Shown here in pieces: positions 1 to 54,645 of a stretch of 64,000 nt of DNA (position 1 is its first letter; every line of letters begins with the position of its first letter). The stretch is taken from assembly GCA_020725425.1 (NCBI GenBank), contig DYFA01000027.1:24131-88130 (forward strand), written 5' to 3'. Origin of the DNA: Aneurinibacillus sp. (GTDB lineage Bacteria; Bacillota; UBA5301; DYFA01). The notes beneath the pieces are model-generated. The model made no database searches, was not told the DNA's origin, and was given only the letters and a program-made list of their open reading frames with translations. The translations under genes and the position numbers were made by a program.

Positions 1-37
1 CGGAAGTACCGAATCGTAATGGAAGTATTTACAGTCT

Positions 38-322
38 TTGAAGAGGATAAGCGCCCTTGCCCGAAACAAGTTCGGGGAGCAGACCAAAGGGGCGCTGCTC
101 ACCCTGCTGTCGACCCTCTTCCGGCGGGGGGACGTGGTCTGCCCGTGGGATTCTCGGTGGTGCCTCGTGCAACTGACGGGGATCGAGCAGAAAGCCGTCT
201 CGGTCGTCAAGCGCCGCCTGGAACGGGCTCTCAAGGGGCTGCCCTTCGTTCCTCCCACCCTCACCGTCCGGGTCGTCGAGCCGTCGGCCGAACCGGCTTC
301 CCTGGAAAACCTTCTCTCCTAG
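38..322 (+). CDS. Small hypothetical protein, possibly winged-helix-like
   Basis: TTG-initiated 94-aa ORF with a protein-like composition, near the window edge and in a lower-GC stretch. The other frame (19..345) reads as Arg/Pro-rich junk. No family recognised. Confidence 0.25.
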   Translation: MKRISALARNKFGEQTKGALLTLLSTLFRRGDVVCPWDSRWCLVQLTGIEQKAVSVVKRRLERALKGLPFVPPTLTVRVVEPSAEPASLENLLS

Positions 323-623
323 ACTCGAACGCCCCCTCTCTTTGAGATTCCTCTGAGAGTCAACAAGAGCCCCCCAAGTTACCGGGGCGAAAAGCTGCAG
401 TGAGGGGCAGTTCACCCTGGGCCGAGGAGTGGGAGAAATGTGAGACCGCTTTGAGAGTCGTCTGGCATAGTGTAGCTACCAGGCCTCACAGGCCTTCCCG
501 GAAGATGAATAAGTTGCCACCTGAGGTATTACACTAGAACCACTGCACTCGGATCGCTGTGCACCAAGCCGAGGGCTGACCGGGGCGCCGTTCCGGTGGG
601 CAAGGACAAAGAGGTGGAAGAAT

Positions 624-1949
624 GTGACCGGGTGGTGGGGGCGCCTCGTGAGAGCTTCAGCCGGGTCCCTGGCGACCTGGTTGATTTTCGCCCTGCTCCA
701 CGCCACCCCCGTTCAGGCCGGGGACCTCGGTCGCATCTTCCAGCGTGATCCGGTCACGGGCGCGTGGGTCCGGCTCCCGTCCGTCAACGACCTGGCCGTT
801 CTCACAAGCACCGGCGCTCCGGCCGGTGGCGCCTGCAATAATCAGAATCGGCCGACGCTCTTCACGAACCGAGTCAAGGTGGAAATGTCCGTGTCGAAGC
901 TCAGCGTCCCGACGCTCGCTTCCCCCGACGAGCTGGGGGCCAGGCCTGTGGACCTGACCTCGCCGGAACTGGGCACGACCAGCTCGGAGGTCACCTTCGT
1001 CGAGGACTTCCAGCCGCGGTCGCCGGCGATCAGTCTGCAGCCGGCCCAGTACGGCTACCTCGCCGGCTTCCGGGTCCCGGAGGACCTCCGGGTGGAATGG
1101 CAGGTGGTTCTGACAGTCAAGAACAACCTGGACGGGGAAATCACGGGCCTCACGGTGACTGAACACCTCAACGCGGAACTGGACTACCACCCGGACACGG
1201 TCAGCGTCACTTCGGGACTCCCAGCCCCGGTTTTCGAACGGAGCGGGAACTTGAAAGTGACTTGGACGATCCCTGGCCTGGGGCCGGGCGCCGAGGCCCG
1301 GCTGAGCTTCACCATCTACAGCCGGCTCAGGAACGCTCACCAGCAGTACAGCGAGCCCACGCCGCCGGAGGGGCCGCCCTACTTCCTGAACTCCGGAGCC
1401 ACCTTAAAGTATTACCGCCTGGGCGTGAAAAGCAGCTTGGAGTTGCCGGCGATCCCCGTCTGGGTCGAGGAGGGCGGATACCTCCGAGTGAGCCTGAGCG
1501 CCACCCGCTACGACTGGCAAGTCCGCAAGCCGGGTACCTTCGCCGCAGATCCGGTGGAGATCGGCGTGTACTCGAACAGAAAGGTGTCGGTGATCTTCAG
1601 CGGGTTTGCCGATTTAGCCGCTGTTTCGCCGGGTCATACGGGGGCCATACCCACCTTCTACGGGTTCGGGAACACGCTGGACGAGGTCGAGAACACGGGG
1701 TGGATACGTGCGCAGGACCTGAACGTCCGGCGGCTTGAGACTGCTGCTGCGGAAAGCGGGACGACTGCGGTGTGGAAGCTGTGGCCGAAACTGAAGGTCA
1801 GCGGGCGGGAGCGCGCCGGGGAATACGAGGATGTAGGCTGCCTGACCTTCATTCTTTGCGAGACCTCGGCTTACATAGAGACCCAGGATACCCTGCTTCG
1901 GACTTCACTGCTTGAGGGGGTGAACCTGCCTGATCCAGACCGACTTTGA
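624..1949 (+). CDS. Secreted protein with a DUF11-like repeat domain and a C-terminal domain paralogous to the next gene
   Basis: GTG start preceded by a GAGGTGG ribosome-binding site. N-terminal signal peptide. Mid-region motif VVLTVKNN..ITGLTVTEHL..TVSVTSG resembles DUF11/CARDB-like repeats. The C-terminal block (YDWQVRKPGTFAAD...FADLA...KLW) is shared with ORF 2045..2728. Confidence 0.6.
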   Translation: MTGWWGRLVRASAGSLATWLIFALLHATPVQAGDLGRIFQRDPVTGAWVRLPSVNDLAVLTSTGAPAGGACNNQNRPTLFTNRVKVEMSVSKLSVPTLASPDELGARPVDLTSPELGTTSSEVTFVEDFQPRSPAISLQPAQYGYLAGFRVPEDLRVEWQVVLTVKNNLDGEITGLTVTEHLNAELDYHPDTVSVTSGLPAPVFERSGNLKVTWTIPGLGPGAEARLSFTIYSRLRNAHQQYSEPTPPEGPPYFLNSGATLKYYRLGVKSSLELPAIPVWVEEGGYLRVSLSATRYDWQVRKPGTFAADPVEIGVYSNRKVSVIFSGFADLAAVSPGHTGAIPTFYGFGNTLDEVENTGWIRAQDLNVRRLETAAAESGTTAVWKLWPKLKVSGRERAGEYEDVGCLTFILCETSAYIETQDTLLRTSLLEGVNLPDPDRL

Positions 1950-2044
1950 CTCCTGATGCATGATCAAACCTTCTCGGAGGCTTTGGGAAGGGCCGCCGGA
2001 GGAGGGCACTAGGTGCAAGGGTAACAAGAAAAGGAGTGTTGAGA

Positions 2045-2728
2045 GGAATGAAGAAGGCCATTTTTGGGGCGATCTTGCTGGCATGCCTGCTTTCCGTGTC
2101 CACCGTCGCGCTGGCTGCTCTTCCTGGCCAGGTCACAGTCTATGTGCCTTCCGAAAACGGCTGGGCCGCGCTGAGCAAAGAGGATCCGGCCTCACTGGCG
2201 AGAGCGTTCACCTCCATCCCGGCCCTCAATAGGTCATGCGATAAGGCGACTTGGACAGAAACGTTCACCAACCATGCCTCAGTCACGCAATGGCTCAATT
2301 ACTCGTTTGCCGGAACCCGGTGGGACTGGCAGGTCCGGAAGCCGGGGATTTTCGCAGCGGACTGCATCTCGTTCACCATCCAGAGCAACGACGATGTAGT
2401 GGTGACCTTCGCTGATTTTGCTGACCTCGAGCCGCAGGTTCATGAGGGGGCGGCCCCGATTCCGGTCGCCTACAGCTTCGGCGACACCGTTGAGGATGCT
2501 ACGGCCAACGGCTGGGTACCGGCAGCAGAGCTCAACGAGAAGGAGATCACCTTGCCCTACGAAGTGGTCGCGGGCGGCGTGAATTACAAGCTGTGGAACA
2601 AGATCGTGGTCGACCAGACCACCCGCGCCTGCGACTACGAGGACAGCGGGACCATCACTATCGCGCTGACCGACGTCAAGCCGTTTGTCGATCCTGCGGA
2701 CGGCGAATACTGGGACCTCATCTACTAG
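2045..2728 (+). CDS. Small secreted protein made of the same domain as the C-terminus of the upstream gene
   Basis: ATG preceded by an AAGGAG ribosome-binding site. Signal peptide MKKAIFGAILLACLLSVSTVALA. Shares RWDWQVRKPGIFAAD, FADFADLEP, GW..A.ELN and YKLWNKIVV...YEDSG with the C-terminal domain of 624..1949. Confidence 0.6.
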   Translation, partial: GMKKAIFGAILLACLLSVSTVALAALPGQVTVYVPSENGWAALSKEDPASLARAFTSIPALNRSCDKATWTETFTNHASVTQWLNYSFAGTRWDWQVRKPGIFAADCISFTIQSNDDVVVTFADFADLEPQVHEGAAPIPVAYSFGDTVEDATANGWVPAAELNEKEITLPYEVVAGGVNYKLWNKIVVDQTTRACDYEDSGTITIALTDVKPFVDPADGEYWDLIY

Positions 2729-2809
2729 TGTCCCGGCTTCCCTTGTCCGGCGGCCCTTCCCAAGGCCTTTGAGACTGGAGTGACTTGGAGTGGAGGAGGA
2801 TATCAGAGG

Positions 2810-4525
2810 GTGACTTCAACCCGGCTATCGCGATGGATGCGTGCACTGTCAGTGTTGGCAATCATGTTGCTTACCACGTCGTCAGGGTTAGGGGCCGGCT
2901 TGAACCTGCAAATCAGTCCACCGATGGCGGAGTTGTTTCTTGAACCAGGCGGGGAGAGGTCTCTTGACGTAGCGATCGAGAACGCGAGCGAGAGCGAAGC
3001 GGCCAGCATCCGGACCCGGCTCTTGCCTGTCGTCCAAGAACGCAAAGGGAACTATCGGGTGGCGTCCGAGCAAGAGATTCCGCCAGGAACGGCATTATCC
3101 TGGTTCCAGTTCTCATCTGAACAGTTCACCCTTCCCCCACGGAGCGCCGAGTCGGTGAACGTGAAGGTCAAGCTCCCCCGAAACGCCAGCGGAAGCCAGG
3201 CGGCTGCGCTGGTCTTCGAAGTCCTGCCGGGGACTGGGCAGGGACGTTCGGAAGGGGCCGTAGGAGGCAGCACGACGTTTGTGCACCAACTCACTTCGAT
3301 TGTCAAAGTCACCGCGAACAGCAGGGCCAACCGGAAAGCCGCCTCCATCTCCGGTCTAGCTGTGGTCAATGGGGCATCCGACCAACGTTTCCGGTCTTAC
3401 GGCGAAGAAGCGCTCGCAGTGATCTGCTCCATCGCCAACGAGGGCAACGTCTTTGTCTCGAGCCAGGGACGCTTGCTCATCAGGAACGCCGCCGGGCGAC
3501 GCATCAAAGATCTTCCCCTCAGTGATGGACGGGGTGTCATATTGCCTGGTTCGACAGTGGACCTGGTGACGATTATTCCGAAGGGGCTGCCGGAGGGCGA
3601 CTATACTGCCGAAGTCTCTGTCCGCTACGGAGGACTCCGGCCGCTTCAGGCGAGGATGCCCTTTCACGTGGCTGGCAGGAAGGCCGCGGTTGGGGAGCCG
3701 CAGGTGGCCTCGACGGTCCGGCTATTGGTTGCTCCGGAGGAAGTTGGTACCCAGCTTCCTCAGGGGGCTTTCCGGGGTTTCACGTTCAGCCTGGCAAACC
3801 TGGACAAGAGCCCCGTACAGGTATGCGGGGCCATCAAAGGGTTGGAATCGGACGAGAATGGCGGACTCATACCGGTTGACGAGCCTTCGGGGCGGTGGTC
3901 GGCAGCAAGCTGGATCAGCCTGGAACAGCACGTCATCCGCCTGGGGCCGGGAGAGAAGAAAAACTTGCGCCTGACGGCCAGCGTTCCTAAGGAAGCAACC
4001 GACGGAACCCGTTATGCCATGCTGGTTTTGGAAGCGACGCTGGAACAGCAGGGAGAATCCGGCACGGTGACCACCATCAGCACTCCGATTGTCATCACCA
4101 CTGGCAAGAATCTGACCAGGAAGGCTGAACTCACAGACACCAGGATTGCCGTGATCGAAGAATCGGGATTGCTATTGGTCGGTGCTACTCTGAAGAACCA
4201 AGGCAACACCCACTTGGCGCCTTCCGGCAAGGTCGTCCTGCGGCGGCGGGGAGTCACCCCTGCCCTTTCGGGAGGGATCGAGTATCTCGGTGAAGCCAAA
4301 TTCGAAGACGTAGCGACCATCCCGTTGCAGGAGACATCAGGCTGGCTCCTTCCCGACCATGCGCGACCGGTCGCGGCGGTGTATGATAAGCCCCTCGAAC
4401 TGGGCGAGTACCAGGGGGAGATTATTGTCGATATCGGAGACAAGCTTCCGCTGAGGGCAACGGTAACGTTCATGGTCGCCCCCCAAGGGACGGACATGAG
4501 GAAGTCCCCGGGTTCCGCCAACTAG
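2810..4525 (+). CDS. Secreted protein with an internally duplicated beta-rich domain
   Basis: GTG at 2810 lies 9 nt after GGAGGAGGA. Signal peptide (TSTRLSRWMRALSVLAIMLLTTSSGLGAG). The two halves share the pattern S.QE..PGT..S.F.FS...FTLPPRSAESVNVKV / R..SVPKEATDGTRYAMLVLE. The family is unknown. Confidence 0.55.
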   Translation: MTSTRLSRWMRALSVLAIMLLTTSSGLGAGLNLQISPPMAELFLEPGGERSLDVAIENASESEAASIRTRLLPVVQERKGNYRVASEQEIPPGTALSWFQFSSEQFTLPPRSAESVNVKVKLPRNASGSQAAALVFEVLPGTGQGRSEGAVGGSTTFVHQLTSIVKVTANSRANRKAASISGLAVVNGASDQRFRSYGEEALAVICSIANEGNVFVSSQGRLLIRNAAGRRIKDLPLSDGRGVILPGSTVDLVTIIPKGLPEGDYTAEVSVRYGGLRPLQARMPFHVAGRKAAVGEPQVASTVRLLVAPEEVGTQLPQGAFRGFTFSLANLDKSPVQVCGAIKGLESDENGGLIPVDEPSGRWSAASWISLEQHVIRLGPGEKKNLRLTASVPKEATDGTRYAMLVLEATLEQQGESGTVTTISTPIVITTGKNLTRKAELTDTRIAVIEESGLLLVGATLKNQGNTHLAPSGKVVLRRRGVTPALSGGIEYLGEAKFEDVATIPLQETSGWLLPDHARPVAAVYDKPLELGEYQGEIIVDIGDKLPLRATVTFMVAPQGTDMRKSPGSAN

Positions 4526-4545
4526 CCAGAAAGGGTGAAAACAGA

Positions 4546-5808
4546 GTGAGAACTCATCGGGTTCACGCCGTATGGTGGATCTCCATCCTACTGATCGGGC
4601 TGGCGGCGGTGAGTGTAGGTGTCCGGGCGGAGCCCCCGGTGACAAACGTTTTCGACAACACGTTCTTGGTTGACGCGCTGCGCGATATTTCCGCCCAGAC
4701 CGGCGTTCCGATCGTCGCCGACTCAACGGTTCAGGGTCAGGTGACCATGACGCTGGAGAATGTCCCCTTGGAAGAGGCGCTCAACCGAGTGTTGGCCCCG
4801 GCAGGCTTGGTGTACCGCCGGATAAACGACTACTATCTGGTCGGTGCCCCAGATCCCAAGAACCCGTCTTTCCTTCTGCTTAGCCGCACGGAGACGGTGA
4901 AGATGCGCTACACCAAAGCGGGAAGTGCCGCCAGGCTTATATCGGACGCGGTCAGCCAGTATGTCAAAGTAGATGTCGACAACAACGCTCTCGTTCTGAC
5001 TGCTCCTGATCCCATTCTGACCCGGATCAAGGCAGACCTGGCAGTGATCGACCGGCCCATCCCGCAGATCATGATCGAAGCCCTGGTGGTGGACGTCTCA
5101 AACGAGGGACGCAAGAACCTCGGGCTCGATTGGGGATGGGAGCACAAGGGGATGGTACGTACCGACACTCCCCGGTCGGGTACGGCGGTCATGGAAGCAT
5201 TGGCGGCGAGCATCGGATACATTCCCGCCGGGGGATTGAACGAGTTTGTCGTAAAGCTCAAGGCGACGTGTGAAAAGGGCCAGGCCAAGATTGAGGCCAA
5301 CCCCCGGGTGGCGACGCTGGACGGCCAGACGGCGGAGATCTTCGTCGGGCGAGACCGGTACTACAACCTGACGACCGGCATCGAGACCAATATGACGGCC
5401 CGGCTCGAGTCGATCAAGACCGGGATCACGCTGAAGCTCCTCCCCCAGGTGGGCGACAACGGCGAGATCACCGTGCGGATCGAGCCGGAGGTCAGCGATG
5501 TGGTGGGCGACAGCACGACCAACGGGACCTACCCCGTGATCAGCCGCCGCAAGGTCAGCACGACGGTGCGGGTCAAGACGGGCGAGAGCATCGTGCTCGG
5601 CGGGCTATTGCAGAGAACGGAACACAAGGTTGTCACCCGGGTGCCGATCCTCGGTTACATCCCGGTCCTTAACCTCCTGTTCAGTTCGACCAAGACGGTT
5701 CAGGAGGAAGGAGAGGTGCTCATCGTCATCACGCCGTATCTGGTGGGCGGCCCGGATACGCCGTCGGGCCGGGTGCCGGTGCTCATGACCCCGTCAACCA
5801 CCAATTAG
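4546..5808 (+). CDS. Secretin-family outer-membrane channel (GspD/PilQ/CpaC-like, short form)
   Basis: Signal peptide and secretin N-domains (FLVDALRDISAQTGVPIV...VTMTLENVPLEEALNRVL). Canonical C-terminal secretin block IEANPRVATLDGQTAEIFVG...VSTTVRVKTGESIVLGGLL...VPILGYIPVLNLLFSS...VLIVITPYLV. Confidence 0.8.
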   Translation: MRTHRVHAVWWISILLIGLAAVSVGVRAEPPVTNVFDNTFLVDALRDISAQTGVPIVADSTVQGQVTMTLENVPLEEALNRVLAPAGLVYRRINDYYLVGAPDPKNPSFLLLSRTETVKMRYTKAGSAARLISDAVSQYVKVDVDNNALVLTAPDPILTRIKADLAVIDRPIPQIMIEALVVDVSNEGRKNLGLDWGWEHKGMVRTDTPRSGTAVMEALAASIGYIPAGGLNEFVVKLKATCEKGQAKIEANPRVATLDGQTAEIFVGRDRYYNLTTGIETNMTARLESIKTGITLKLLPQVGDNGEITVRIEPEVSDVVGDSTTNGTYPVISRRKVSTTVRVKTGESIVLGGLLQRTEHKVVTRVPILGYIPVLNLLFSSTKTVQEEGEVLIVITPYLVGGPDTPSGRVPVLMTPSTTN

Positions 5809-5905
5809 CCTCGCTCGAGATTGAGAGGATGGCGTCACCGGCGGGTGGCGGCGTCCTTTGTATCAATAACTTTACTCAAACTTTACACGCAAAGCAGGAA
5901 ACGGG

Positions 5906-6730
5906 GTGGCTCCGGCAAATACTCCGGTAATGCGGGCGGTGGAGGTGGGTGTGGTGGACGCCCCGGCGGTAGTCACTTTTTTGGTCGGGTGGCTTAAGCA
6001 GCAAGTCGAGGCGAGCAAGACGGAGGGAGTCGTCTTCGGTCTGTCCGGCGGAATTGACTCGGCGGTGGTGGGCGCTCTGTGTAAGCAGGCGGTCCCGGAA
6101 CGCTGCCAGGGGCTGATCATGCCGTGCCACTCCGACCCCCGCGACCGGGAGGACGCGCTGGCGGTCGCCCGGCTCTTCGGCATCCCCGTCCAGACGGTGG
6201 ACCTGAGCCCGGTCTACGACCTGCACCTGGCGGCGCTGCGCCAGAGCCTGGCGGCGGCAGAACAGGAGCAGGGGCCGGGGCTCGCGGTGGACAGGCGGGC
6301 CAGCCTCGCTGAGGCCAACCTGAAGCCGCGCTTACGGATGGCGACTCTCTACTTTTTCGCCAACAGCTTAAACTACCTGGTGGTAGGCACGGGGAACCGG
6401 AGCGAGCTGACCGTCGGGTACTTCACCAAGTACGGCGACGGCGGGGTGGACCTCCTGCCTCTCGGCAGCCTGGTCAAAACCCAGGTGCGCCAGCTGGCGG
6501 AGCATCTCGGCCTCCCGCGACGGGTGATCGACAAGCCTCCCTCAGCCGGCCTGTGGGAGGGGCAGACGGATGAGGGGGAGATGGGCACCTCCTACGCCGA
6601 GTTGGACCGGTACATCCTGGAGGGCGTGGCCGCTGGAGCAGTGCGGGCCAAGGTCGAGCGCATGAGCCGGGCGGCCGCGCACAAGCTGACCCTGCCGCTG
6701 ATTCCGGAACTGCCCGAGGAATTCTTGTAA
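5906..6730 (+). CDS. nadE: NH3-dependent NAD+ synthetase
   Basis: PP-loop motif VFGLSGGIDSAVV and typical NadE length and C-terminus. Confidence 0.85.
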   Translation: MAPANTPVMRAVEVGVVDAPAVVTFLVGWLKQQVEASKTEGVVFGLSGGIDSAVVGALCKQAVPERCQGLIMPCHSDPRDREDALAVARLFGIPVQTVDLSPVYDLHLAALRQSLAAAEQEQGPGLAVDRRASLAEANLKPRLRMATLYFFANSLNYLVVGTGNRSELTVGYFTKYGDGGVDLLPLGSLVKTQVRQLAEHLGLPRRVIDKPPSAGLWEGQTDEGEMGTSYAELDRYILEGVAAGAVRAKVERMSRAAAHKLTLPLIPELPEEFL

Positions 6731-8109: not shown

Positions 8110-8273
8110 GACGGCCCCCCCCCTTACTTGAGGGAGATTAAACGGCCACAGGCAAAATCCTGCGCGGCGGTGACCCGTTCTAGCCCTGCTGCTCCCTGCC
8201 AACGGAGGGCCAATCTACCGGCAGGAGGCCGTTGGCGGGAGCGCCAATAAAGAAAGGGAGAGGAGTTGCAGCC

Positions 8274-8954
8274 ATGAGTCGCAGCATCGTTCACCGCTTT
8301 CTCCTCGCCTCCGCGGTGTTGCTCTGTCTCGCCTTTCCGGCCACTCCGGCCGCGGCCGCCCCGGAGACCCCGGAGGTCCGCCGCGGTCACGGCGTCCTCG
8401 CCTTTACTGCCTTCACCCAGTCCGGCGAGGTCTTTCCCGAGCCCAGCCTGGAATTCGGCCCAGCCGTGGAGTATGGCCTGACCGATCGGGCAGCCGTGCG
8501 GGCCTTCTGGCACGAGCAAAGGTACAACGATCCGCGCTCCCGGGACAGCCGCCTGGCTGATCTCGGGCTCAAGTACGAAGTCACTCCGGACCTCGCCGTG
8601 GAGGGCTTCGTCGAATCCAACTGGGACGATCGCAACTCCGCGACCGTCTATGGCTTCGGGTTGTTTGCCGGAAAGCAGTTCGGGCGGGCGTACGGATCAG
8701 TTCGGTGGCAGGCTCTCGCGCTTCCCTACCTGGGAGAATACTACTGGTACGACCAGCTCGCGGCCACCGGGAGCTACGCCCTGACTCCCCAGCTCAACTT
8801 CCTCGGCGGTGTCACGGCCACCCTCGACGTGGGGATCGACTGGCGCGGTTCGTACGGCCTGGAGTGGCAGCCCGATTCAAACTGGGCAATATGCGTGAGC
8901 CGCTTCACCGACCGCCGCGACCTCACCCAGCTTGGGGTGGAGTACCGCTTCTAG
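8274..8954 (+). CDS. Putative outer-membrane beta-barrel protein
   Basis: ATG after an AAAGGGAGAGGAG ribosome-binding site, followed by a signal peptide. The alternating hydrophobic pattern and C-terminal ...LGVEYRF (terminal Phe) are typical of outer-membrane barrels. Confidence 0.45.
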   Translation: MSRSIVHRFLLASAVLLCLAFPATPAAAAPETPEVRRGHGVLAFTAFTQSGEVFPEPSLEFGPAVEYGLTDRAAVRAFWHEQRYNDPRSRDSRLADLGLKYEVTPDLAVEGFVESNWDDRNSATVYGFGLFAGKQFGRAYGSVRWQALALPYLGEYYWYDQLAATGSYALTPQLNFLGGVTATLDVGIDWRGSYGLEWQPDSNWAICVSRFTDRRDLTQLGVEYRF

Positions 8955-29270: not shown

Positions 29271-30479
29271 TTGCGGACCTGGGACCTGATCGTGGTGGGG
29301 GCGGGGCCGGCCGGCGCGGCGGCCGCCCGGGCGGCCGCCCGGGCCGGCGTCGAGACGCTGATCCTGGAGGCGGAGGAGTTTCCCCGGCCGAAACCGTGCG
29401 CCGGAGGTCTCTCGGCAGCGGCCCTGAAGGAGCTGGGGGAGCCGCTCCCGCCCGGAGTGGCGGGGCGGGCGTGCCGGGCTGTGCGGCCTCGCTACGGCGG
29501 CTTGGCGGTTACAGTGCGCCGGGAGGAGACGCTGGTCGAGGTGGTCCACCGGGACCGGTTCGACGCCTACCTGCTCTCCCTGGCCCGGCAGGCTGGGGCC
29601 GAGGTGAGGCACGGGACCCGGGTCACCGCCGCCGAGCCGGGGAGCGACGGGGTGACCTTGCGCACTGACCGGGGGACGTGGCGCGCCCGGGTGGTCGTGG
29701 GAGCCGACGGCGCCCGGAGCAGGGTCGGCCTGGCGGTCCGCCCGCCGTTCCCCCGCCGCGACCTCGGGGTGTGCCAGGTCGGGGAACTGCCCCTCCGCCC
29801 CCAGGAGTACGAAACCTTCTTCGTTGATGGGCTCGAGGTGTGGTACAGCAACCCGGAGAAAGGCTACGGCTGGATCTTCCCGCAGGAGGCCGGCCTGAAC
29901 GTAGGCATCGGCAGCGTCGCCCGGTACTTGCCTTCGCCCCGCCGCGAGCTGTCGCGCTTCCTGGCCCTGGCCGGGCTCCCGGAGCCGGCGGCGGTCAAGG
30001 GGGCAGTCCTGCCGCTCGGCGGGCGGAATCATCCCGGGCAGGCCGCGCGGGTGCTGCTGGCGGGGGACGCTCTGGGCGTGGCCGACCCTTTCACCGGTGA
30101 GGGTATTCGTTATGCCCTGCTTTCGGGGCGGCTGGCTGGCGAGTGCGCTGCCGCGGCGCTTCACCGCTCCCCCGCCCACCCGGACCTCTCCTCCTACCCC
30201 GCGCGGTGCTGGGAGAGCTTCGGGGCCGACCTCCGGTATGCCCGCCTCTTCGCCCGCCTCTACCTCTCGCTCGATCAGCGGCTCAACCGCTTGGTCTTCC
30301 GCCACCCCGGTCTCTTCTCCCGGGTGGCTGACATCATGCAAGGGAAGGGCACCTACCGCGATCTCGTGGGGAAGCTCGGGAGTCATCTGCCCGGCTACTG
30401 GCTGCGGGGTCTCATGAACCGCCAAACCCGTGAGTTTAGTCGAACAATTTCGGAAAGAACGTTGCGACCACCAGGATGA
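29271..30479 (+). CDS. Geranylgeranyl reductase family FAD-dependent oxidoreductase
   Basis: FAD dinucleotide-binding motif DLIVVGAGPAGAAAARAAARAG..LILE. TTG at 29271 lies 8 nt after AAGGAGG. The track ATG at 29241 has no ribosome-binding site. Confidence 0.7.
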   Translation: MRTWDLIVVGAGPAGAAAARAAARAGVETLILEAEEFPRPKPCAGGLSAAALKELGEPLPPGVAGRACRAVRPRYGGLAVTVRREETLVEVVHRDRFDAYLLSLARQAGAEVRHGTRVTAAEPGSDGVTLRTDRGTWRARVVVGADGARSRVGLAVRPPFPRRDLGVCQVGELPLRPQEYETFFVDGLEVWYSNPEKGYGWIFPQEAGLNVGIGSVARYLPSPRRELSRFLALAGLPEPAAVKGAVLPLGGRNHPGQAARVLLAGDALGVADPFTGEGIRYALLSGRLAGECAAAALHRSPAHPDLSSYPARCWESFGADLRYARLFARLYLSLDQRLNRLVFRHPGLFSRVADIMQGKGTYRDLVGKLGSHLPGYWLRGLMNRQTREFSRTISERTLRPPG

Positions 30480-31692
30480 TGGTCAGGGCGATCATCACCC
30501 AGGTTGTCACCCAGGCCACCACATTGTACCAGCGTGAATTGACGTAGTTGCCCATGAGTCTGCGGTCGTTGATGAGAAGCTGCATATAGATCAGGATGAA
30601 TGGCAAAAGGATGCCGTTCGCCACCTGGGACAGGTACATCATCAGGATCAGAGGCGCGTTGGGAATCAGAACAATCCCGACTGCGAGAACGATCAAGCCG
30701 GTGTACAAGCCGAAGAACCAGGGTGCCTCTTTGAACGTCTTGTTGACTCCGGATTCCCAGCCCATACCTTCACAGACGGAGTAGGCAGTCGATAACGGGA
30801 GAATCGAGGCAGCGAAGAGGGAGGCGTTGAACAGCCCAAAGCCGAACAGCGCAGCCGCATGTTTGCCTGCGAGGGGACGGAGGGCCATCGCAGCGTCTTT
30901 GGCGGTCTCGATTTGGATGCCATGTGCGAAGAGAGTAGCCGCGCAAGCCGCCACGATGAACCAGGCTACGATGTCCGTGACGAAACATCCCAGCACCACG
31001 TCCAGGCGGGAGTATCTGTAATCGCATACCCGGATCCCCTTCTCGACGATGGACGATTGAAGATAGAACTGCATCCAGGGAGCGATCGTCGTTCCGACCA
31101 TGCCGATGACCATCATGATGTAGCTCGGCTCAAAGCTAAAACTTGGAGTTACCGTGGCACGCAAGAGTTCTCCCCAGTGTGGCTTGGCCATGATGCCGGA
31201 GATGACGTATGCCACGTAGAACACGCACGCTGCTAGAAAGACCTTCTCAACGGTCTTGTATGTCCCCTTGACCACCAGCCACCATACCAGGACTGCCCCG
31301 AGCGGCACGGTGATGTACTTGGAGATACCAAAGACTTCTCCCGCAGCCGCTACCCCGGCGAAGTTACCGACCGTGTTGGCCAGATTGGCGATCAAGAGAC
31401 CCAAGAGAAGGTAAAACGTGGTCTTGACCCCGAAATTCTCCCGAATAAGGTCAGAGAGGCCCTTGCCGGTTACGGCGCCCATCCGGGCTACCATTTCTTG
31501 AACTACGATCAGCGCGAATGTTATGGGGACAAGGGTCCAGAGCATAGCTGCGCCATAATGCGCCCCGGCCAGAGAATAGGTGGTAATGCCGCCGGCGTCG
31601 TTGTCGACGTTGGCGGTGATAATCCCTGGACCTACCACACTCAGCCAGAAGAAGAGGCTGCCGAGCCTTGCTTTCACATCTCTCACTAGCAT
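30436..31692 (-). CDS. mntH: NRAMP-family divalent metal transporter (MntH-like)
   Basis: 11-12 transmembrane helices and an NRAMP N-terminal signature region (VVGPGIITANVDNDAGGITTYSLAGAHYG). Confidence 0.75.
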   Translation of the reverse strand: MLVRDVKARLGSLFFWLSVVGPGIITANVDNDAGGITTYSLAGAHYGAAMLWTLVPITFALIVVQEMVARMGAVTGKGLSDLIRENFGVKTTFYLLLGLLIANLANTVGNFAGVAAAGEVFGISKYITVPLGAVLVWWLVVKGTYKTVEKVFLAACVFYVAYVISGIMAKPHWGELLRATVTPSFSFEPSYIMMVIGMVGTTIAPWMQFYLQSSIVEKGIRVCDYRYSRLDVVLGCFVTDIVAWFIVAACAATLFAHGIQIETAKDAAMALRPLAGKHAAALFGFGLFNASLFAASILPLSTAYSVCEGMGWESGVNKTFKEAPWFFGLYTGLIVLAVGIVLIPNAPLILMMYLSQVANGILLPFILIYMQLLINDRRLMGNYVNSRWYNVVAWVTTWVMIALTIILVVATFFPKLFD

Positions 31693-31713
31693 GGCGTCAT
31701 CTCCGTTTCGCTC

Positions 31714-32985
31714 CTAGACCCGACGGAGGCGCTTCCGGCGGTTGGCGAGGTAGACGTCGTCCACCACGTCGTGGATGAGGGCCATGCCGAGCAGGTGCTG
31801 GCCGGCGTCGACCACCGGGATGGCCAGGAGGTCGTACTTGGTCATCACCTCGGCCACCTCGTTCTTGTGCGCATCCTCCTTAACGAAGAGGACGTGGGGG
31901 TCCATGATCGCCCAGAGCGGCTGGTCCGGCTCAGCCACCACCAGGTCGCGCAAGGAGACCACGCCGATCAGGTGCTGCTCCCCGTCGACGACGTACAGAT
32001 AGTAGGCCGAGTCCGGGTCCGGCTTCAGCCGCCGTAACTCCTCGATGGTTTGAGCGGTAGTGAGCTCCTCCCGGAAGGAGAGCACGTCGGTGGTCATCAG
32101 GCGCCCGGCCGTGTCCTCCTCGTATTCGAGCAGTTCCCGGACGTCCTCTGCCTCCTCGTCCTCCATCTGCTCCAGGAGTTCCTGAGCCCGCCGTTCCGGC
32201 AGCTCACCCAAGATGTCGGCCGCTTCGTCGGCCGGCATCGACTCCAGGATGTCGGAGGCCTTCTCTCCCCCCAACTGTTCCAGGACATCGGCCTGCGCTT
32301 CCGGCTCCATCTCCTGCAGGGTCTCGGCGGCCACGTCCACGTTCAGGGCGGACATGACCGCCGCCCGCTCCGGCCGGTTCAGGGCCTCCAGGATGTCGGC
32401 TAGGTCCGCCGGGTGGAGCTTGCTCAGCCGCTCGTACGGCACAGCGAGCTTGACCTGGTGGGGGGCGCTGGTGATGGGTTCCACGTCCCGCCAGGAGATG
32501 AAGTAGTCCTCGATCGGCTTGGGCAGGAGCTTATCCAAGCCATGGACCAGGCGGCGCAGCCCCAGCCGGCGCAGCAGGCCGCGCAGGCCCACCTCGACGG
32601 CCACGAGCCGCAGCACGCCGTTGATCTCGGCCAGCTTGATGTCGTTGATCCGCCGTACCTTCAGCCCGTTCAGGTCGACGATCTGCTTGTCGAGGAGGTC
32701 CCGCTTGAGATGGAGCAGCTTCTCCGGGAGGGATTGCTCGTCGACCTCGTCTTTCTGCACCGAAAGGGTCAGGTACTGGCGGACGAGCACCTGGATGAGC
32801 GACCAGGGAATCCTCCGGAGGGCGCCGCGCTTCGTCCGCACCTCCAGCCCCACCACCGGCGGAAACTCCTCCCCCGGCTCGACCAGGATATCGTTCACCC
32901 TGCCCAGACGCTTGCCGAAGCGGTCGACCACTGTCTTTTCGAGTAAGCGACTCGCGTGGATCTCAGGCACGATGGCGACGGACAT
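31714..32985 (-). CDS. Soluble PRC-barrel + MgtE-N + CBS-pair protein (no channel domain)
   Basis: MgtE intracellular N domain (LADILEALN..., acidic helix) and a tandem CBS pair. It lacks the MgtE transmembrane domain. ATG at 32985 after GGGAGGTGAG. Likely co-transcribed with the NRAMP gene. Confidence 0.7.
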   Translation of the reverse strand: MSVAIVPEIHASRLLEKTVVDRFGKRLGRVNDILVEPGEEFPPVVGLEVRTKRGALRRIPWSLIQVLVRQYLTLSVQKDEVDEQSLPEKLLHLKRDLLDKQIVDLNGLKVRRINDIKLAEINGVLRLVAVEVGLRGLLRRLGLRRLVHGLDKLLPKPIEDYFISWRDVEPITSAPHQVKLAVPYERLSKLHPADLADILEALNRPERAAVMSALNVDVAAETLQEMEPEAQADVLEQLGGEKASDILESMPADEAADILGELPERRAQELLEQMEDEEAEDVRELLEYEEDTAGRLMTTDVLSFREELTTAQTIEELRRLKPDPDSAYYLYVVDGEQHLIGVVSLRDLVVAEPDQPLWAIMDPHVLFVKEDAHKNEVAEVMTKYDLLAIPVVDAGQHLLGMALIHDVVDDVYLANRRKRLRRV

Positions 32986-33342: not shown

Positions 33343-33448
33343 GGAGGGGAGCCAGCCGAGTCGAGGTCACAGGTTGAGTGGAGAAGAGACGAGCAAAGAG
33401 CAGGCAGGACCCGTTCAGGTCTGACTCTTTGGAGTCGGGCCGTTTTTG
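33343..33448 (+). promoter_or_regulatory. trp leader attenuator: GAG-triplet array followed by an intrinsic terminator
   Basis: Nine GAG triplets at 33343, 33348, 33357, 33362, 33375, 33380, 33385, 33390 and 33397, mostly 2-nt spaced. These are followed by the nested hairpin GACCCG..GACUCuuugGAGUC..GGGCC and then UUUUUGUU. Confidence 0.45.
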
Positions 33449-33484
33449 TTACCTCGTCCTTCTCCCGCCCCGGAGGTGGGAAAG

Positions 33485-35803
33485 GTGTCCGCAGACTTGT
33501 CCGTCCTGCGGGAGTCGCTTCCGCTCGTCACCGCCCCGCACCCGGAGAGGGTCCGGATAAGGTTAGGGGAGGTGGTCGCCGGCGGCCCGGTCCCGGTGGT
33601 CATCGCCGGCCCCTGCGCCGTGGAGAGCCTGGCGCAGCTCCTCCAGACCGCCCGGCAGGTCAAGGCCGCCGGCGCCCACGGCTTGCGCGGCGGCGCCTTC
33701 AAGCCCCGCAGTTCCCCCTACAGCTTCCAAGGTTTGGGTCGGCCAGCTCTGGAGATGTTGGCCGCGGCCAAGGTCGAGACGGGTCTCTTCCTGACCATCG
33801 AGGTGATGCGGGAGGCTGAGGTCGACCTGGTGGCCGACTACGCCGACCTGCTCCAGATCGGCGCCCGGAACATGCAGAACTTCGCCCTGCTGCGGGCCGT
33901 GGGAAGGTGCCCCCGCCCGGTGCTGCTCAAGCGGGGGATGGCCGCCACTGTCCGGGAGTGGCTGCAGGCCGCGGAGTACATCCTTGCGGAAGGGAACCCC
34001 AGCGTCATCCTTTGCGAGCGCGGAATCCGCACCTTCGAACCGTGGACCCGCAATACCTTCGATGTCGCCGCTATCTCCCTGGTGCGCAACCTGTCCGGAC
34101 TGCCGGTCTTCGCCGACCCCAGCCACGCCGCCGGCCGGCGGGAACTCGTTCCCCCTCTGGCCCGGGCCGCTCTGGCGGCGGGGGCCGACGGCCTCCTGCT
34201 CGAGGTTCATCCCGATCCGTCGAGGGCGCTCTCCGACGGCGACCAGTCGCTCACCCTGGAGGAGTTCGCAAACCTGATGCGCGGCCTGGCCCCGTTCTGC
34301 GCCGGCCGGGAGCCGGTTTCCCGCAGGAGCCGGCCGGCGGGGATCAGCCCGGCAGCCGGTGAGTTCCCGGAACTGGCGGCCCGCGGCTACCGCCACGCCC
34401 CGGTCTTCACCCAGTTCACCAGCGACGAGCTTACGCCGGTGGGGATTTTCCGTCGCCTGGTGCATCAGGGGCCCGGCTTCCTCTTGGAAAGCGTGGAGTC
34501 CGGGGGAAACGGAGTCGGCCGGTACTCCTTCTGCGGTGACCGCCCGCTCCTGACCCTGACCGCCCGGGGCCGCCGCCTGGAGCAGAAGGGGCCCGGCCGG
34601 CTCGAGGAGGCGTCGGAGGGCGACGTCCTGGACCGGCTGCGCGAGCTCCTGGAGGTGTTCCGCGTGGCGCCGGTCGAGGGGTTACCCCGCTTCTACGGGG
34701 GAGCCGTGGGCTATTTGGGCTACGACTACGTACAGGCGTTGGAACCCATCCCTGCGACCGCCCCGGACCCGCTGGGGCTGCCGGACTCCTTCTGGCTGGT
34801 GCCGGAGCGACTCGTGGTCCTGGACCACGTCACCGGCGCGGTGACAGTGATCATCCTGGCGCCGACGGACCGGGAGGGGTACGAACGGGCCTCATCCCTC
34901 CTCGAGGCCACCCTCGCCGAACTGCGCCAACCGTGCCCGGCGCGGGAAGCGAAGCCGGAACCAGCTGGAGCCCTCCTCTCTTCGGTCTCCCAGGCGGAGT
35001 TCTGCACGGCCGTGACGAAGGCCAAAGAGTACATCGCCGGGGGTGACGCCTTCCAGGTGGTGCTCTCCCGGCGGCTGACCACCCCCTACGCCGGCGACGC
35101 CGTTGAGCTGTACCGGGCCCTGCGCTCCGAGAACCCTTCGCCCTACCTGTTCCTCCTCGACTGCGGCGGTTTCCACCTGGTCGGCTCCTCCCCGGAGATG
35201 CTGGTGCGCCTGGAGGGAACTACGGCCGAGATCCGCCCGCTGGCAGGGACCAGGCCTCGGGGCCGGGACAGCGAGGCCGACCGGGCCCTTGAGGCGGAAT
35301 TGCGGGCTGACGCCAAGGAGTGCGCCGAGCACGTCATGCTGGTGGACTTGGGCCGTAACGACCTGGGGCGGGTCTGCCGGTTCGGGAGCGTTCAAGTGCC
35401 GGAGTTGATGGGGGTGGAGCGGTTCTCCCGGGTGATGCACCTCGTCTCCCGCGTCACCGGCGAGCTGGCGCCGGGCCAGGACGCCTTTTCGCTGCTCAAG
35501 GCGGTCTTCCCCGCCGGGACGCTGACCGGCGCCCCGAAGGTGCGGGCGATGCAGCTCATCGCCGAACTGGAGCCCTTCCAACGCGGCATCTACGGCGGGG
35601 CGGTGGGGTACGTCGGGTTCAACGGCAGTCTGGACGCCTGCATCGCCATCCGCACGGCGGTCCTCTGCGACGGCCGGGTCAGCGTGCAGGCCGGAGCGGG
35701 GATCGTCGCCGACTCCGACCCGGAGCGGGAGTACGCCGAGACGGCCCACAAGGCGGCGGCCGTTCTCGCCGCCGTCCGCCGGGCGCAGGAGGGACGGTCA
35801 TGA
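33485..35803 (+). CDS. trpE: Fusion protein: DAHP synthase (class I-beta, AroG/KdsA-like) + anthranilate synthase component I (TrpE)
   Basis: N-terminal [10 protein letters not shown]...[19 protein letters not shown]...IGARNMQNF...LLKRG...[10 protein letters not shown]...[10 protein letters not shown] matches the unadorned I-beta DAHP synthase core. A roughly 30-aa linker is followed by the TrpE body (LLESVESGG...GRYSF...[15 protein letters not shown]). One continuous ORF. GTG at 33485 after GGAGGTG. Confidence 0.85.
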
Positions 35804-54439: not shown

Positions 54440-54645
54440 GTCTCTGCCCCGCCCCGCGGCGGGGCGTAAAGAAAGCGCCTGTTCCCTTGAGTGGAAAGGC
54501 GCCGGACAGGCCGTTTCTCATCTCTCAGGAACTGCTTCCTGCAGGATTTGGCACCGCACGGCCGGGCCGCCGGTTGCCGAGGCTTCATCGGGCCAGTCCC
54601 TCCACCTCTCGCGATGAGACCTTTGTGGTATGCGGTTGTAGTTGT
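54440..54645 (-). promoter_or_regulatory. SAM-I (S-box) riboswitch with terminator-like expression platform
   Basis: Minus strand reads CUCAUCgcGAGAGGUGGAGGGACUGGCCCGAUGAAGCCUCGGCAACC...GUGCGGUGCCAAAUCCUGCAGGAAG...GAGAUGAGA, which matches the SAM-I core and P1 pairing. It is followed by GGCGCC...GGCGCUUUCUUUA. Confidence 0.8.

What the first reader, a model, noticed from the sequence alone, without database searches (positions are those of the whole stretch)
1450..2728. Novel paralogous domain shared by adjacent secreted proteins (DWQVRKPG-FAAD / FADLA / KLW motifs)
The C-terminal ~160 aa of ORF 624-1949 and almost all of ORF 2045-2728 align with conserved blocks RYDWQVRKPGTFAAD / RWDWQVRKPGIFAAD, FADLA / FADLE, GW..A..LN and KLW.K..V...YED.G. 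I do not recognise the family. It is faintly reminiscent of C-terminal WxL-type cell-surface attachment domains, but does not match them convincingly.
Basis: seen in the sequence. Interest (0 to 1): 0.5.

Follow-up and report, generated by a model that had tools for sequence, protein, structure and literature searches.

The report
Pilin-like proteins with chaperone and secretin
The two adjacent secreted proteins share a real, unannotated domain whose predicted fold resembles pilus subunits, and they always sit beside a pilus-chaperone-like gene and an outer-membrane secretin pore gene, which suggests an undescribed way of building a bacterial surface fibre.

Summary
ORF1 also carries ORF2's N-terminal segment, so it is an ORF2-like protein with a ~195-aa Ig-type insertion.

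No Pfam, NCBIfam, PHROG or PDB sequence model matches the domain. An exhaustive profile search found 376 cluster representatives.

The AlphaFold model of ORF2 most resembles chaperone-usher pilins (CsuA/B, CfaB, FimG), at modest scores.

In the window and ~17 other distinct loci (Bacillota, Zixibacteria and Ignavibacteria MAGs), every locus with enough DNA has the same order: paralogue A, paralogue B, a ~560-aa protein, a secretin.
- Only one locus has a secretion ATPase or platform gene within ±8 kb. Called-gene Pfam lists for five loci show no usher.

Best reading (confidence ~0.5): an ATP-independent "chaperone-secretin" fibre or adhesin system.

The WxL hint fails for the domain itself (Pfam 0/121; hhalign P=0.14), but the gene-cluster layout matches WxL clusters. 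I found no description of this system in the literature.

The parts
610..617 (+). Shine-Dalgarno-like AGAGGTGG, 6 nt upstream of the ORF1 GTG start
   Evidence: Read directly from the sequence. No sigma-70-type promoter was found on the + strand and no Rfam element lies upstream.
624..1949 (+). ORF1, paralogue A (large form, 441 aa). It consists of a signal peptide, an N-terminal segment, an Ig-type insertion and the C-terminal shared domain. Proposed role: minor, tip or adhesin subunit.
   Evidence: It is identical to NCBI QME79_10335.
624..719 (+). ORF1 Sec-type signal peptide (MTGWWGRLVRASAGSLATWLIFALLHATPVQA|GD)
   Evidence: Sequence inspection: basic n-region, hydrophobic core and a V-Q-A cleavage motif. 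This is an inference; no predictor was run.
756..884 (+). ORF1 N-terminal segment (residues ~45-87), homologous to the N-terminal strands of ORF2. Shared motifs are G.W and C[DN]......T..FTN[HR]..V.
   Evidence: The N-segment HMM scores ORF1 at 19.5 bits, against a maximum of 8.7 in 1,700 shuffles. The family HMM splits at this point in all 11 large paralogue-A forms.
885..1472 (+). ~195-aa insertion in ORF1 with a weak DUF11/B_ant_repeat Ig-type match (residues 162-231)
   Evidence: Pfam DUF11 E=0.003, below the curated cut-off. The homologues P0013, P0033 and P0050 pass the DUF11 cut-off.
1473..1892 (+). ORF1 C-terminal shared domain (residues 284-423)
   Evidence: BLASTP E=2e-28 against ORF2. 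Family HMM positions 88-231 match at 133.7 bits.
2048..2728 (+). ORF2, paralogue B (small form, 226 aa from ATG 2048; the mechanical ORF starts at GTG 2036). Proposed role: major subunit.
   Evidence: Paralogue B is the better-conserved of the two across loci (250-325 bits versus 85-190 bits). AF2 model: pLDDT 77.5, pTM 0.70. The fold resembles chaperone-usher pilins.
2291..2701 (+). ORF2 part of the shared domain, aligned to ORF1 (residues 86-222 in 2036 numbering)
2837..4525 (+). ORF3, a secreted ~562-aa protein of four beta-sandwich domains with no membrane anchor. It is a tandem duplication of a PapD/WxLIP-like two-domain unit. Proposed role: periplasmic chaperone or assembly factor.
4546..5808 (+). 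ORF4, a minimal secretin (420 aa): signal peptide, STN/N0 domain, one Secretin_N domain and the secretin domain
   Evidence: Pfam Secretin E=1.1e-42, STN 2.4e-10, Secretin_N 2.5e-5. It falls below the cut-off of every NCBIfam secretin subfamily. Its best PDB relatives are PilQ and GspD (E~1e-29).
5843..5856 (+). Weak terminator-like hairpin followed by TTTGTATCAA, 35 nt after the secretin stop codon
   Evidence: Consensus scan only, and the count is no higher than in shuffled sequence.

Best explanation
The shared domain is the core of a previously unannotated family of Sec-exported beta-sandwich proteins with a chaperone-usher-pilin-like fold. These proteins are the substrates, and probably the subunits, of a self-contained four-gene envelope module: paralogue A (variable, often carrying inserted Ig-type domains), paralogue B (conserved, ~230 aa), a periplasmic protein made of two PapD/WxLIP-like chaperone units in tandem, and a dedicated minimal secretin.

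Proposed mechanism:
1. All four products cross the inner membrane through Sec.
2. ORF3 caps the unfinished Ig fold of each subunit by donating a strand, as PapD and FimC do and as WxLIP is predicted to do.
3. Subunits then join head-to-tail. The N-terminal strand segment of one subunit fills the groove of the next, with paralogue A as the tip or adhesin and paralogue B as the shaft.
4. The growing fibre, or surface complex, leaves through the secretin. The driving force is folding and strand exchange rather than ATP.

Shown here: the paralogy, the family, the signal peptides (by inspection), the invariant gene order, the fold similarities, the duplication in ORF3, and the absence of ATPase and platform genes from the cassette. 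Inferred: strand donation, polymerisation, subunit order, passage through the secretin, and the energy source.
For: (1) Paralogy: E=2e-28.

(2) Family size: 376 representatives at E<=1e-3 and 301 at E<=1e-10 among 1.84 billion proteins.

(3) Gene order: paralogue A, paralogue B, ORF3-like, secretin, all on one strand, in the window and in every locus with enough DNA. There are ~17 further distinct loci, from Bacillota, Clostridia, Zixibacteria and Ignavibacteria MAGs. The flanking genes differ. The only other conserved gene is a 347-aa ORF restricted to one Bacillota clade.

(6) Subunit architecture: the N-terminal strands start ~4 residues after the predicted cleavage site, with an alternating hydrophobic pattern (QVTVYV). 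A low-confidence linker joins them to the core. All 11 large paralogue-A forms tolerate 200-400-aa insertions exactly at that linker. This is the layout of an N-terminal donor element.

(7) No type IV filament machinery: no T2SSE or T2SSF homologue lies within +/-8 kb of the cassette in any locus except L007/L008, where they lie 6-10 kb upstream behind unrelated genes. None occurs anywhere in the 64-kb window. ORF1 and ORF2 have type I signal peptides, not prepilin leaders.

(8) Precedent: membrane-anchored PapD-like chaperones are proposed to assemble donor-strand Pam pili without an usher in CPR bacteria (bioRxiv 10.64898/2026.03.03.709456). AlphaFold predicts that WxLIP inserts a strand into WxL (PMC10599100).
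Against: - The ORF2 model is only moderately confident (pLDDT 77.5). The ORF3 model rests on a 3-sequence alignment (pLDDT 73.9, pTM 0.58).
- I could not obtain model coordinates or run multimer predictions. So I could not tell whether the N-terminal segment completes the fold of its own chain (no polymer needed) or of a neighbour.
- No sequence model of pilins (Fimbrial, SCPU) or of PapD chaperones matches.
- No secretin is known to export a chaperone-assembled fibre without an inner-membrane ATPase. The partner machinery could be encoded elsewhere in these incomplete MAGs.
- Some small paralogue-A forms (L004, L018, L019, L020) lack the N-terminal segment, while the large ones have it. That gives no clean tip-versus-shaft rule.
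- Every member comes from an uncultured organism, so there are no expression or imaging data.
Confidence: 0.5

Rival explanations
1. A non-polymeric surface-display complex, the diderm counterpart of a WxL/Csc cluster. ORF1 and ORF2 are monomeric surface proteins: the shared domain is an anchoring or platform module and ORF1's inserted Ig domains are the binding part. ORF3 holds or stabilises them, and the secretin only lets them reach the cell surface. No fibre forms.
For: - The cluster layout (small + large paralogue + WxLIP-like protein) equals the minimal WxL cluster described in PMC9772566 and PMC10599100.
- The monomer model places the N-terminal strands as part of a folded protein. An insertion within a single domain explains ORF1's architecture without any strand exchange.
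- Some family members carry enzymes, FG-GAP or PKD modules and dockerins, like display scaffolds.
Against: - The domain is not a WxL domain by Pfam (0/121), by motifs, or by hhalign (P=0.14).
- ORF3 lacks the C-terminal membrane helix that tethers WxLIP, and it is duplicated.
- The best fold matches of ORF2 are polymerising pilins rather than wall-binding modules.
- Nothing in the cassette explains how monomers would stay attached to an outer membrane.
Confidence: 0.27
2. Ordinary cargo of a type II secretion, type IV pilus or Tad machine encoded elsewhere in the genome. ORF4 is that machine's secretin or a spare one, ORF1 and ORF2 are secreted adhesins, and ORF3 is a co-secreted partner or secretin accessory.
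For: - Every characterised secretin works with an inner-membrane ATPase-driven machine (established knowledge). ORF4 is most similar to PilQ and GspD.
- L007/L008 carry Tad-like ATPase and platform genes 6-10 kb upstream.
- MAG contigs are incomplete.
Against: - Across three or four phyla the secretin is glued to these three genes and to nothing else.
- No ATPase or platform homologue occurs in the other loci or in the 64-kb window.
- ORF4 falls below the cut-off of every NCBIfam secretin subfamily and has only one N domain.
- This reading leaves unexplained why the conserved partner has a pilus-chaperone fold.
Confidence: 0.13
3. The shared domain is a divergent but true WxL peptidoglycan-binding domain.
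For: - The final strand, Y-E-D-x-G-T-I-T-L-T-L-T-D, resembles the second WxL motif Y-x-x-x-L-T-W-T-L-x-D (Siezen 2006 additional file 7). This is the only segment hhalign aligns.
- G-T-F-A-A after a conserved Arg loosely recalls R-G-T-x-A-G before the first WxL motif.
- The cluster context is WxL-like.
Against: - Both signature Trp residues are replaced (Asp109 and Ile/Leu), and the D-x-R-G motif is absent.
- PF13731 hits 0 of 121 members at E<=1.
- hhalign gives probability 0.4% and P=0.14.
- The hosts appear to be diderm, and the cassette has a secretin instead of wall anchors.
- Caveat: my WxL alignment came from OCR text and lacks the N-terminal ~100 residues of the domain.
Confidence: 0.07

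Closest known systems
Chaperone-usher pili, especially the archaic (sigma) and alternate classes: Csu (CsuA/B-CsuC), CupE, CFA/I (CfaB-CfaA)
   Same: - A larger, variable paralogue encoded next to a conserved small one, like an adhesin beside a major subunit.
- A periplasmic partner with the two-domain PapD fold.
- A compact operon with no ATPase.
   Different: - The outer-membrane component is a secretin (PF00263), not an usher beta-barrel.
- The chaperone-like protein is a tandem duplicate of ~560 aa.
- There is no sequence-level match to the Fimbrial, SCPU, PapD_N/C or Usher models.
- Subunits are larger (~200 aa mature) and have a multi-strand N-terminal segment on a long linker.
- Hosts are uncultured Bacillota, Zixibacteria and Ignavibacteria rather than Proteobacteria.
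WxL/Csc surface-protein clusters of Lactobacillales and Bacillales (small WxL + large WxL + WxLIP = DUF916/DUF3324)
   Same: - Minimal cluster logic: a ~230-aa protein that is essentially one domain, a large paralogue sharing that domain plus Ig-type binding domains, and a two-Ig-domain partner (PMC9772566, PMC10599100).
- In both families an N-terminal strand is tied to the core by a long unstructured stretch (PMC9772566).
   Different: - The shared domain lacks both WxL motifs and does not match PF13731.
- The partner has no transmembrane anchor and is duplicated.
- There is no LPxTG protein.
- A secretin is always present.
- The hosts appear to be diderm.
Pam pili of Candidate Phyla Radiation bacteria (bioRxiv 10.64898/2026.03.03.709456)
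   Same: Ig-like pilins joined by donor-strand exchange and proposed to be assembled by PapD-like chaperones without an usher. Several pilin paralogues sit in one operon.
   Different: - Pam chaperones are membrane-anchored and there is no outer-membrane component, because the host has a single membrane.
- Pam pilins are reported to be exclusive to CPR bacteria.
- I did not test homology to the family here, because no Pam sequences were available.
Secretin-dependent systems (T2SS, type IV pili, Tad, filamentous-phage pIV)
   Same: ORF4 is a bona fide secretin with N0/STN, one N domain and the secretin domain. It is similar in size to phage pIV and RcpA.
   Different: - No GspE/PilB/TadA ATPase, platform protein, prepilin peptidase or class III signal-peptide pilins lie in the cassette (sequence inspection).
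- The conserved partners are instead a pilus-chaperone-like protein and Ig-fold subunits.

Membership tests
WxL domain (Pfam PF13731; CscB/CscC WxL1/WxL2) | Match to the PF13731 profile | tested here: not met
   ORF1 and ORF2 have no hit at E<=1. None of 121 family members hits at E<=1.
WxL domain (Pfam PF13731; CscB/CscC WxL1/WxL2) | Two conserved Trp-x-Leu motifs in the C-terminal domain, the first preceded by Asp-x-Arg-Gly (Siezen 2006, PMC1534035; PMC9772566) | tested here: not met
   Alignments A1-A3 show conserved W98-x-[VI] within DWQVRKPG, and W187-x-K-[IL]. There is no D-x-R-G. The positions that pattern-match the WxL tryptophans hold Asp109 and Ile/Leu.
WxL domain (Pfam PF13731; CscB/CscC WxL1/WxL2) | Profile-profile similarity to WxL1 | tested here: inconclusive
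   hhalign of A3 against a 27-sequence CscB alignment gives probability 0.4%, P=0.14 and 14 aligned columns. That alignment was rebuilt from OCR text, contains errors and lacks the N-terminal ~100 residues, so the curated HMM is still needed.
WxL cluster (small WxL + large WxL + WxLIP) | Adjacent small and large paralogues sharing the domain, plus a DUF916/DUF3324 protein | tested here: met
   [not shown]
WxL cluster (small WxL + large WxL + WxLIP) | WxLIP has one PGBD-HBD pair and a C-terminal transmembrane helix; hosts are monoderm Firmicutes | tested here: not met
   ORF3 has two such pairs (halves homologous, E=2e-11) and no C-terminal hydrophobic helix. A secretin is always adjacent.
Chaperone-usher pilus | Subunit with a pilin-type incomplete Ig fold | tested here: inconclusive
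   [not shown]
Chaperone-usher pilus | Two-domain PapD-like periplasmic chaperone | tested here: met
   [not shown]
Chaperone-usher pilus | Outer-membrane usher (PF00577) | tested here: not met
   The conserved outer-membrane gene is a secretin (Pfam Secretin E=1.1e-42). No Usher family appears in the Pfam lists of called genes for L001-L008. No further gene is conserved across phyla.
Chaperone-usher pilus | Donor-strand complementation by the chaperone and donor-strand exchange between subunits | not testable with these tools
   This needs multimer structure prediction or experiment. There is only indirect support: an N-terminal strand segment on a flexible linker that tolerates insertions.
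Type II secretion / type IV filament systems | Secretin | tested here: met
   PF00263, STN and Secretin_N all match. PilQ and GspD are the best PDB relatives. ORF4 is below the cut-off of all NCBIfam subfamily models.
Type II secretion / type IV filament systems | GspE/PilB/TadA ATPase and GspF/PilC platform encoded with the secretin | tested here: not met
   phmmer with L007's T2SSE and T2SSF against all ORFs of all loci and of the whole window finds them only in L007/L008, 6-10 kb away. Copies elsewhere in the genomes cannot be excluded.
Type II secretion / type IV filament systems | Pilins or pseudopilins with a class III (prepilin) signal peptide | tested here: not met
   ORF1, ORF2 and their orthologues have type I signal peptides ending in A-x-A-like sites, and none has a G|F-T-L-x-E motif.
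Pam pili (CPR) | Homology to PamA/PamB pilins and to the TM-anchored PamC/PamD chaperones | not tested
The comparison rests on the preprint's description only.

The most novel reading that the evidence does not exclude
This is a distinct, ATP-independent pilus biogenesis route, a 'chaperone-secretin pathway'. A tandem PapD/WxLIP-like chaperone assembles Ig-fold subunits by donor-strand exchange, and the fibre exits through a dedicated minimal secretin instead of an usher. Its presence in diderm-type Bacillota, Zixibacteria and Ignavibacteria would make it an evolutionary bridge. It would link the WxL/WxLIP clusters of monoderm Firmicutes, the usher-less Pam pili of CPR bacteria and the chaperone-usher pili of Proteobacteria.
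Probability: 0.35. Interest if true: 0.85.

Novelty: new variant of a known kind. Interest (0 to 1): 0.7.

Why it matters
Non-flagellar surface fibres of double-membraned bacteria are currently sorted into a handful of assembly routes: chaperone-usher, type IV/Tad, curli and type V. Secretins are thought always to work with an inner-membrane ATPase machine.

A conserved cassette that pairs pilus-chaperone-like and pilin-like proteins with a secretin, and with nothing else, would have three consequences if confirmed:
- It would add a new assembly route.
- It would show that a secretin can serve a folding-driven process.
- It would suggest what the long-enigmatic WxL/WxLIP clusters of lactobacilli, enterococci and Listeria are related to.

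It also assigns a testable role to a protein family of several hundred sequence clusters that is currently labelled 'hypothetical'. The four-gene module, about 5.2 kb, is small enough to synthesise and express in E. coli.

Tried and rejected
- **AlphaFold-database fold search (afdb50)** was unavailable, so I could not compare against predicted WxL models.
- **The search for related loci with the 121-sequence alignment A3** failed because no stretch was conserved enough. I repeated it with A2.
- **The third homologue search, with the ORF3 alignment,** returned only 5 proteins because of the candidate cap. Two of them (P0163, P0164) are 347-379-aa DUF916-like proteins with a C-terminal membrane helix. 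P0163's locus (L024) has no WxL neighbour, so it gave no WxL sequences.
- **A solved WxL structure:** a phmmer search of the PDB with a CscB sequence rebuilt from OCR text found none.
- **Sequence searches of ORF2, of the A3 profile and of ORF3 against the PDB** gave nothing significant.
- **PHROGs** gave nothing, so there is no phage link.
- **Promoter and terminator scans** found no more than chance would.
- **No Rfam element lies upstream of ORF1**, so there is no riboswitch clue such as c-di-GMP.
- **A conserved disulfide** between the G.CDK and RACDYED cysteines was considered and rejected. ORF1 and P0013 lack the second Cys and P0010 lacks the first.
- **A fifth conserved gene** was sought by all-against-all BLAST of the flanking ORFs. 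The only candidate is a clade-specific 347-aa ORF downstream of the secretin in L007, L009-L012 and L023.
- **Literature searches** for DUF916+secretin, PapD-like+secretin, and WxL+donor strand found no description of this system.
Full report
**1.

ORF1 (624-1949, 441 aa) and ORF2 (mechanical ORF 2036-2728, probable start ATG 2048) lie 86-98 nt apart on the + strand. BLASTP aligns ORF1 residues 286-422 to ORF2 residues 86-222 without gaps, at 36% identity and E=2e-28.

Both proteins begin with a basic, then hydrophobic, then A-x-A-type signal peptide (read from the sequence). ORF1's GTG start is preceded by AGAGGTGG.

One refinement matters. ORF2's mature N-terminal ~60 residues do not align to ORF1's C-terminus but to ORF1's own N-terminus.
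- An HMM of that segment, built from small family members, scores ORF1 at 19.5 bits. The best of 1,700 shuffled controls scores 8.7.
- The full family HMM splits on ORF1 into residues 24-87 and 284-423.

ORF1 is therefore an ORF2-like protein with a ~195-aa insertion. The insertion weakly resembles DUF11, and homologues such as P0013 pass the DUF11 cut-off.

**2. The family**

Pfam, NCBIfam, PHROGs and PDB sequences give no significant hit to the shared domain.
- The word-indexed search found 11 small and 4 large homologues. The window's proteins are NCBI QME79_10335 and QME79_10340 from a Bacillota MAG.
- An exhaustive profile search of 1.84 billion cluster representatives found 376 proteins at E<=1e-3 and 301 at E<=1e-10. 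Most are 200-280 aa and some are 310-1,158 aa.
- None of 121 small members hits WxL, Fimbrial, SCPU or TasA-type Pfam models at E<=1.
- Large members either have DUF11-type insertions, or carry the domain N-terminally followed by CarboxypepD_reg, 3-keto-disaccharide hydrolase, FG-GAP or PKD modules and a dockerin.

**3. Genomic context is the strongest result**

Downstream of ORF2 lie ORF3 (2837-4525) and ORF4 (4546-5808). ORF4 is a secretin: Pfam Secretin E=1.1e-42, plus STN and one Secretin_N domain.

I looked up contigs encoding family members and scanned GTDB species genomes. I then searched all loci with HMMs I built for the three families.
- The window and every locus with enough DNA show the same order on one strand: paralogue A (large or small), paralogue B (small), ORF3-like (545-616 aa), secretin. 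There are ~17 further distinct loci.
- The hosts are Bacillota and Clostridia MAGs, Zixibacteria and Ignavibacteria, all uncultured.
- Flanking genes differ between loci. An all-against-all comparison of flanking ORFs found no further gene conserved across phyla. The only candidate is a 347-aa ORF after the secretin in one Bacillota clade.
- Homologues of a T2SSE ATPase and T2SSF platform occur only in L007/L008, 6-10 kb upstream behind unrelated genes. None occurs elsewhere, including the entire 64-kb window.
- Paralogue B is much better conserved (250-325 bits) than paralogue A (85-190 bits).

**4. Structure of the shared domain**

AlphaFold2 on ORF2 with a 15-sequence alignment gave pLDDT 77.5 and pTM 0.70. 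The model is all-beta. N-terminal strands (residues 31-45 and 56-68) are joined to the core (87-211) by a low-confidence linker, residues 65-82. The insertions of all 11 large A forms sit at this linker.

- Foldseek agrees independently: CfaB E=3.5e-4 (probability 1.00), then CsuA/B and FimF/G at 0.99.

The scores are modest, so the fold class is likely but homology is not proven.

**5. ORF3 is chaperone-like**

Sixteen orthologues align well, all have signal peptides, and none has a C-terminal membrane helix.
- The protein is a tandem duplication of a two-domain unit. The two halves align at E=2e-11.
- Twelve of 16 orthologues hit Pfam WxLIP_PGBD/DUF916 (best E=1.2e-8), 12 hit FixG_C, 11 hit NPCBM_assoc, and 10 hit OCRL-like ASH, a PapD-like domain.
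- The AlphaFold model rests on a 3-sequence alignment (pLDDT 73.9) and has four beta-sandwiches.

So two independent models, of two different proteins in the operon, point to the two halves of a chaperone-pilin pair.

**6. The WxL question**

WxL clusters consist of a small WxL protein, a large WxL protein with N-terminal binding domains, and WxLIP. AlphaFold predicts that a WxLIP strand inserts into WxL next to its N-terminal strand (PMC9772566, PMC10599100, PMC1534035). The layout here is the same.

The domain itself, however, is not WxL by any test I could run.
- It has no PF13731 hit.
- Both Trp-x-Leu motifs and the D-x-R-G motif are missing.
- I rebuilt a partial CscB (WxL1) alignment from the OCR text of Siezen 2006 additional file 7. 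hhalign against it gave probability 0.4% and P=0.14. The only aligned segment was Y..GTITLTL against Y..tLTWTL.
- That alignment is noisy and lacks the N-terminal part of the domain, so I record this result as inconclusive rather than negative.

**7. Mechanism**

The best-supported reading is a four-gene, ATPase-less module. The chaperone-like ORF3 caps Sec-exported subunits. The subunits join by N-terminal strand donation, with A as tip or adhesin and B as shaft. The product leaves through the dedicated secretin.

Shown: the components, their folds, the invariant linkage, and the lack of type IV machinery in the cassette.

Inferred: strand complementation and exchange, polymerisation, subunit order, and the energy source.

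Main rivals:
- A non-polymeric WxL-like surface complex exported through the secretin.
- Cargo of a T2SS, T4P or Tad machine encoded elsewhere.

The closest conceptual precedent for usher-less assembly by PapD-like chaperones is the CPR Pam pilus preprint.

**8. Novelty**

Full-text searches found nothing that describes a PapD/WxLIP-like chaperone coupled to a secretin, or this protein family. All the parts are of known kinds, but the combination is not. I therefore rate it a new variant of a known kind. I put the chance that it is a genuinely separate pilus assembly pathway at about one in three.

**9. Limits**

- No model coordinates, no multimer prediction and no AlphaFold-database search were available.
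- The fold scores for the shared domain are modest.
- All sequences come from MAGs or metagenomes.
- The diderm status of the Bacillota host is inferred only from the secretin and from a nearby secreted protein ending in ...YRF (8232-8954), which has no Pfam hit.

Noticed in passing
window 54515-54620 (-): SAM riboswitch (RF00162): 88.8 bits against a gathering score of 44.4, full-length match.
   Followed up: no
window 33446-35803 (+): A 785-aa ORF fusing a DAHP synthase domain to anthranilate-synthase-component-I-like domains (DAHP_synth_1 + Anth_synt_I_N + Chorismate_bind). This is an unusual single-chain combination of the first shikimate-pathway enzyme with a chorismate-utilising enzyme.
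   Followed up: no
window 1-6000 and 30001-32000: GC content is 0.60-0.63 over the four-gene cassette, against 0.66-0.72 in most of the window. This is compatible with horizontal acquisition of the cassette. A second dip (0.604) covers the Nramp and MgtE-like transporter genes.
   Followed up: partly
window 2780-4525 (+): The public annotation of ORF3 (QME79_10345, 456 aa, P0161) starts at an internal Met and omits the signal peptide and most of the first domain. The orthologue alignment supports a start at ATG 2837.
   Followed up: yes
L001 12449-14761: The Zixibacteria RBG-1 secretin of this cassette is 770 aa. It has a ~390-aa N-terminal extension with a weak FadL/Toluene_X (outer-membrane beta-barrel) match, E=2e-5 and below the cut-off. 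It may be a secretin fused to another outer-membrane domain.
   Followed up: partly
P0110, P0140, P0105 (family members): Some members carry the family domain at the N-terminus, followed by CarboxypepD_reg + 3-keto-disaccharide hydrolase, or FG-GAP + PKD, or PKD alone, and end in a dockerin. This suggests the domain can serve as a carrier or anchor for enzymes and binding modules. Their genomic context could not be looked up.
   Followed up: partly
window 8232-8954 (+): A 240-aa protein with a signal peptide, ending in ...LGVEYRF, which looks like an outer-membrane beta-barrel C-terminal signal. It has no Pfam hit. It would fit a double-membrane envelope in this Bacillota MAG.
   Followed up: no
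L007 16413-17456, with homologues in L009-L012 and L023: A 347-aa ORF without a Pfam hit lies directly downstream of the secretin, but only in one clade of Bacillota MAGs. It may be a lineage-specific accessory of the cassette, and it is absent from the window.
   Followed up: partly
L024 67-1110 (P0163): A 347-aa DUF916-like protein with a C-terminal membrane helix, the same architecture as WxLIP. It comes from a high-GC metagenome contig and sits next to CARDB/neocarzinostatin-like and TIG-repeat proteins, with no WxL gene. WxLIP-like proteins evidently partner with other substrate families too.
   Followed up: partly
L007/L008 1-3857: Tad-like genes (ParA/CpaE-like, T2SSE ATPase and two T2SSF) lie 6-10 kb upstream of the cassette, separated from it by RecD2, polysaccharide deacetylase and other genes. 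No other locus shows this.
   Followed up: yes
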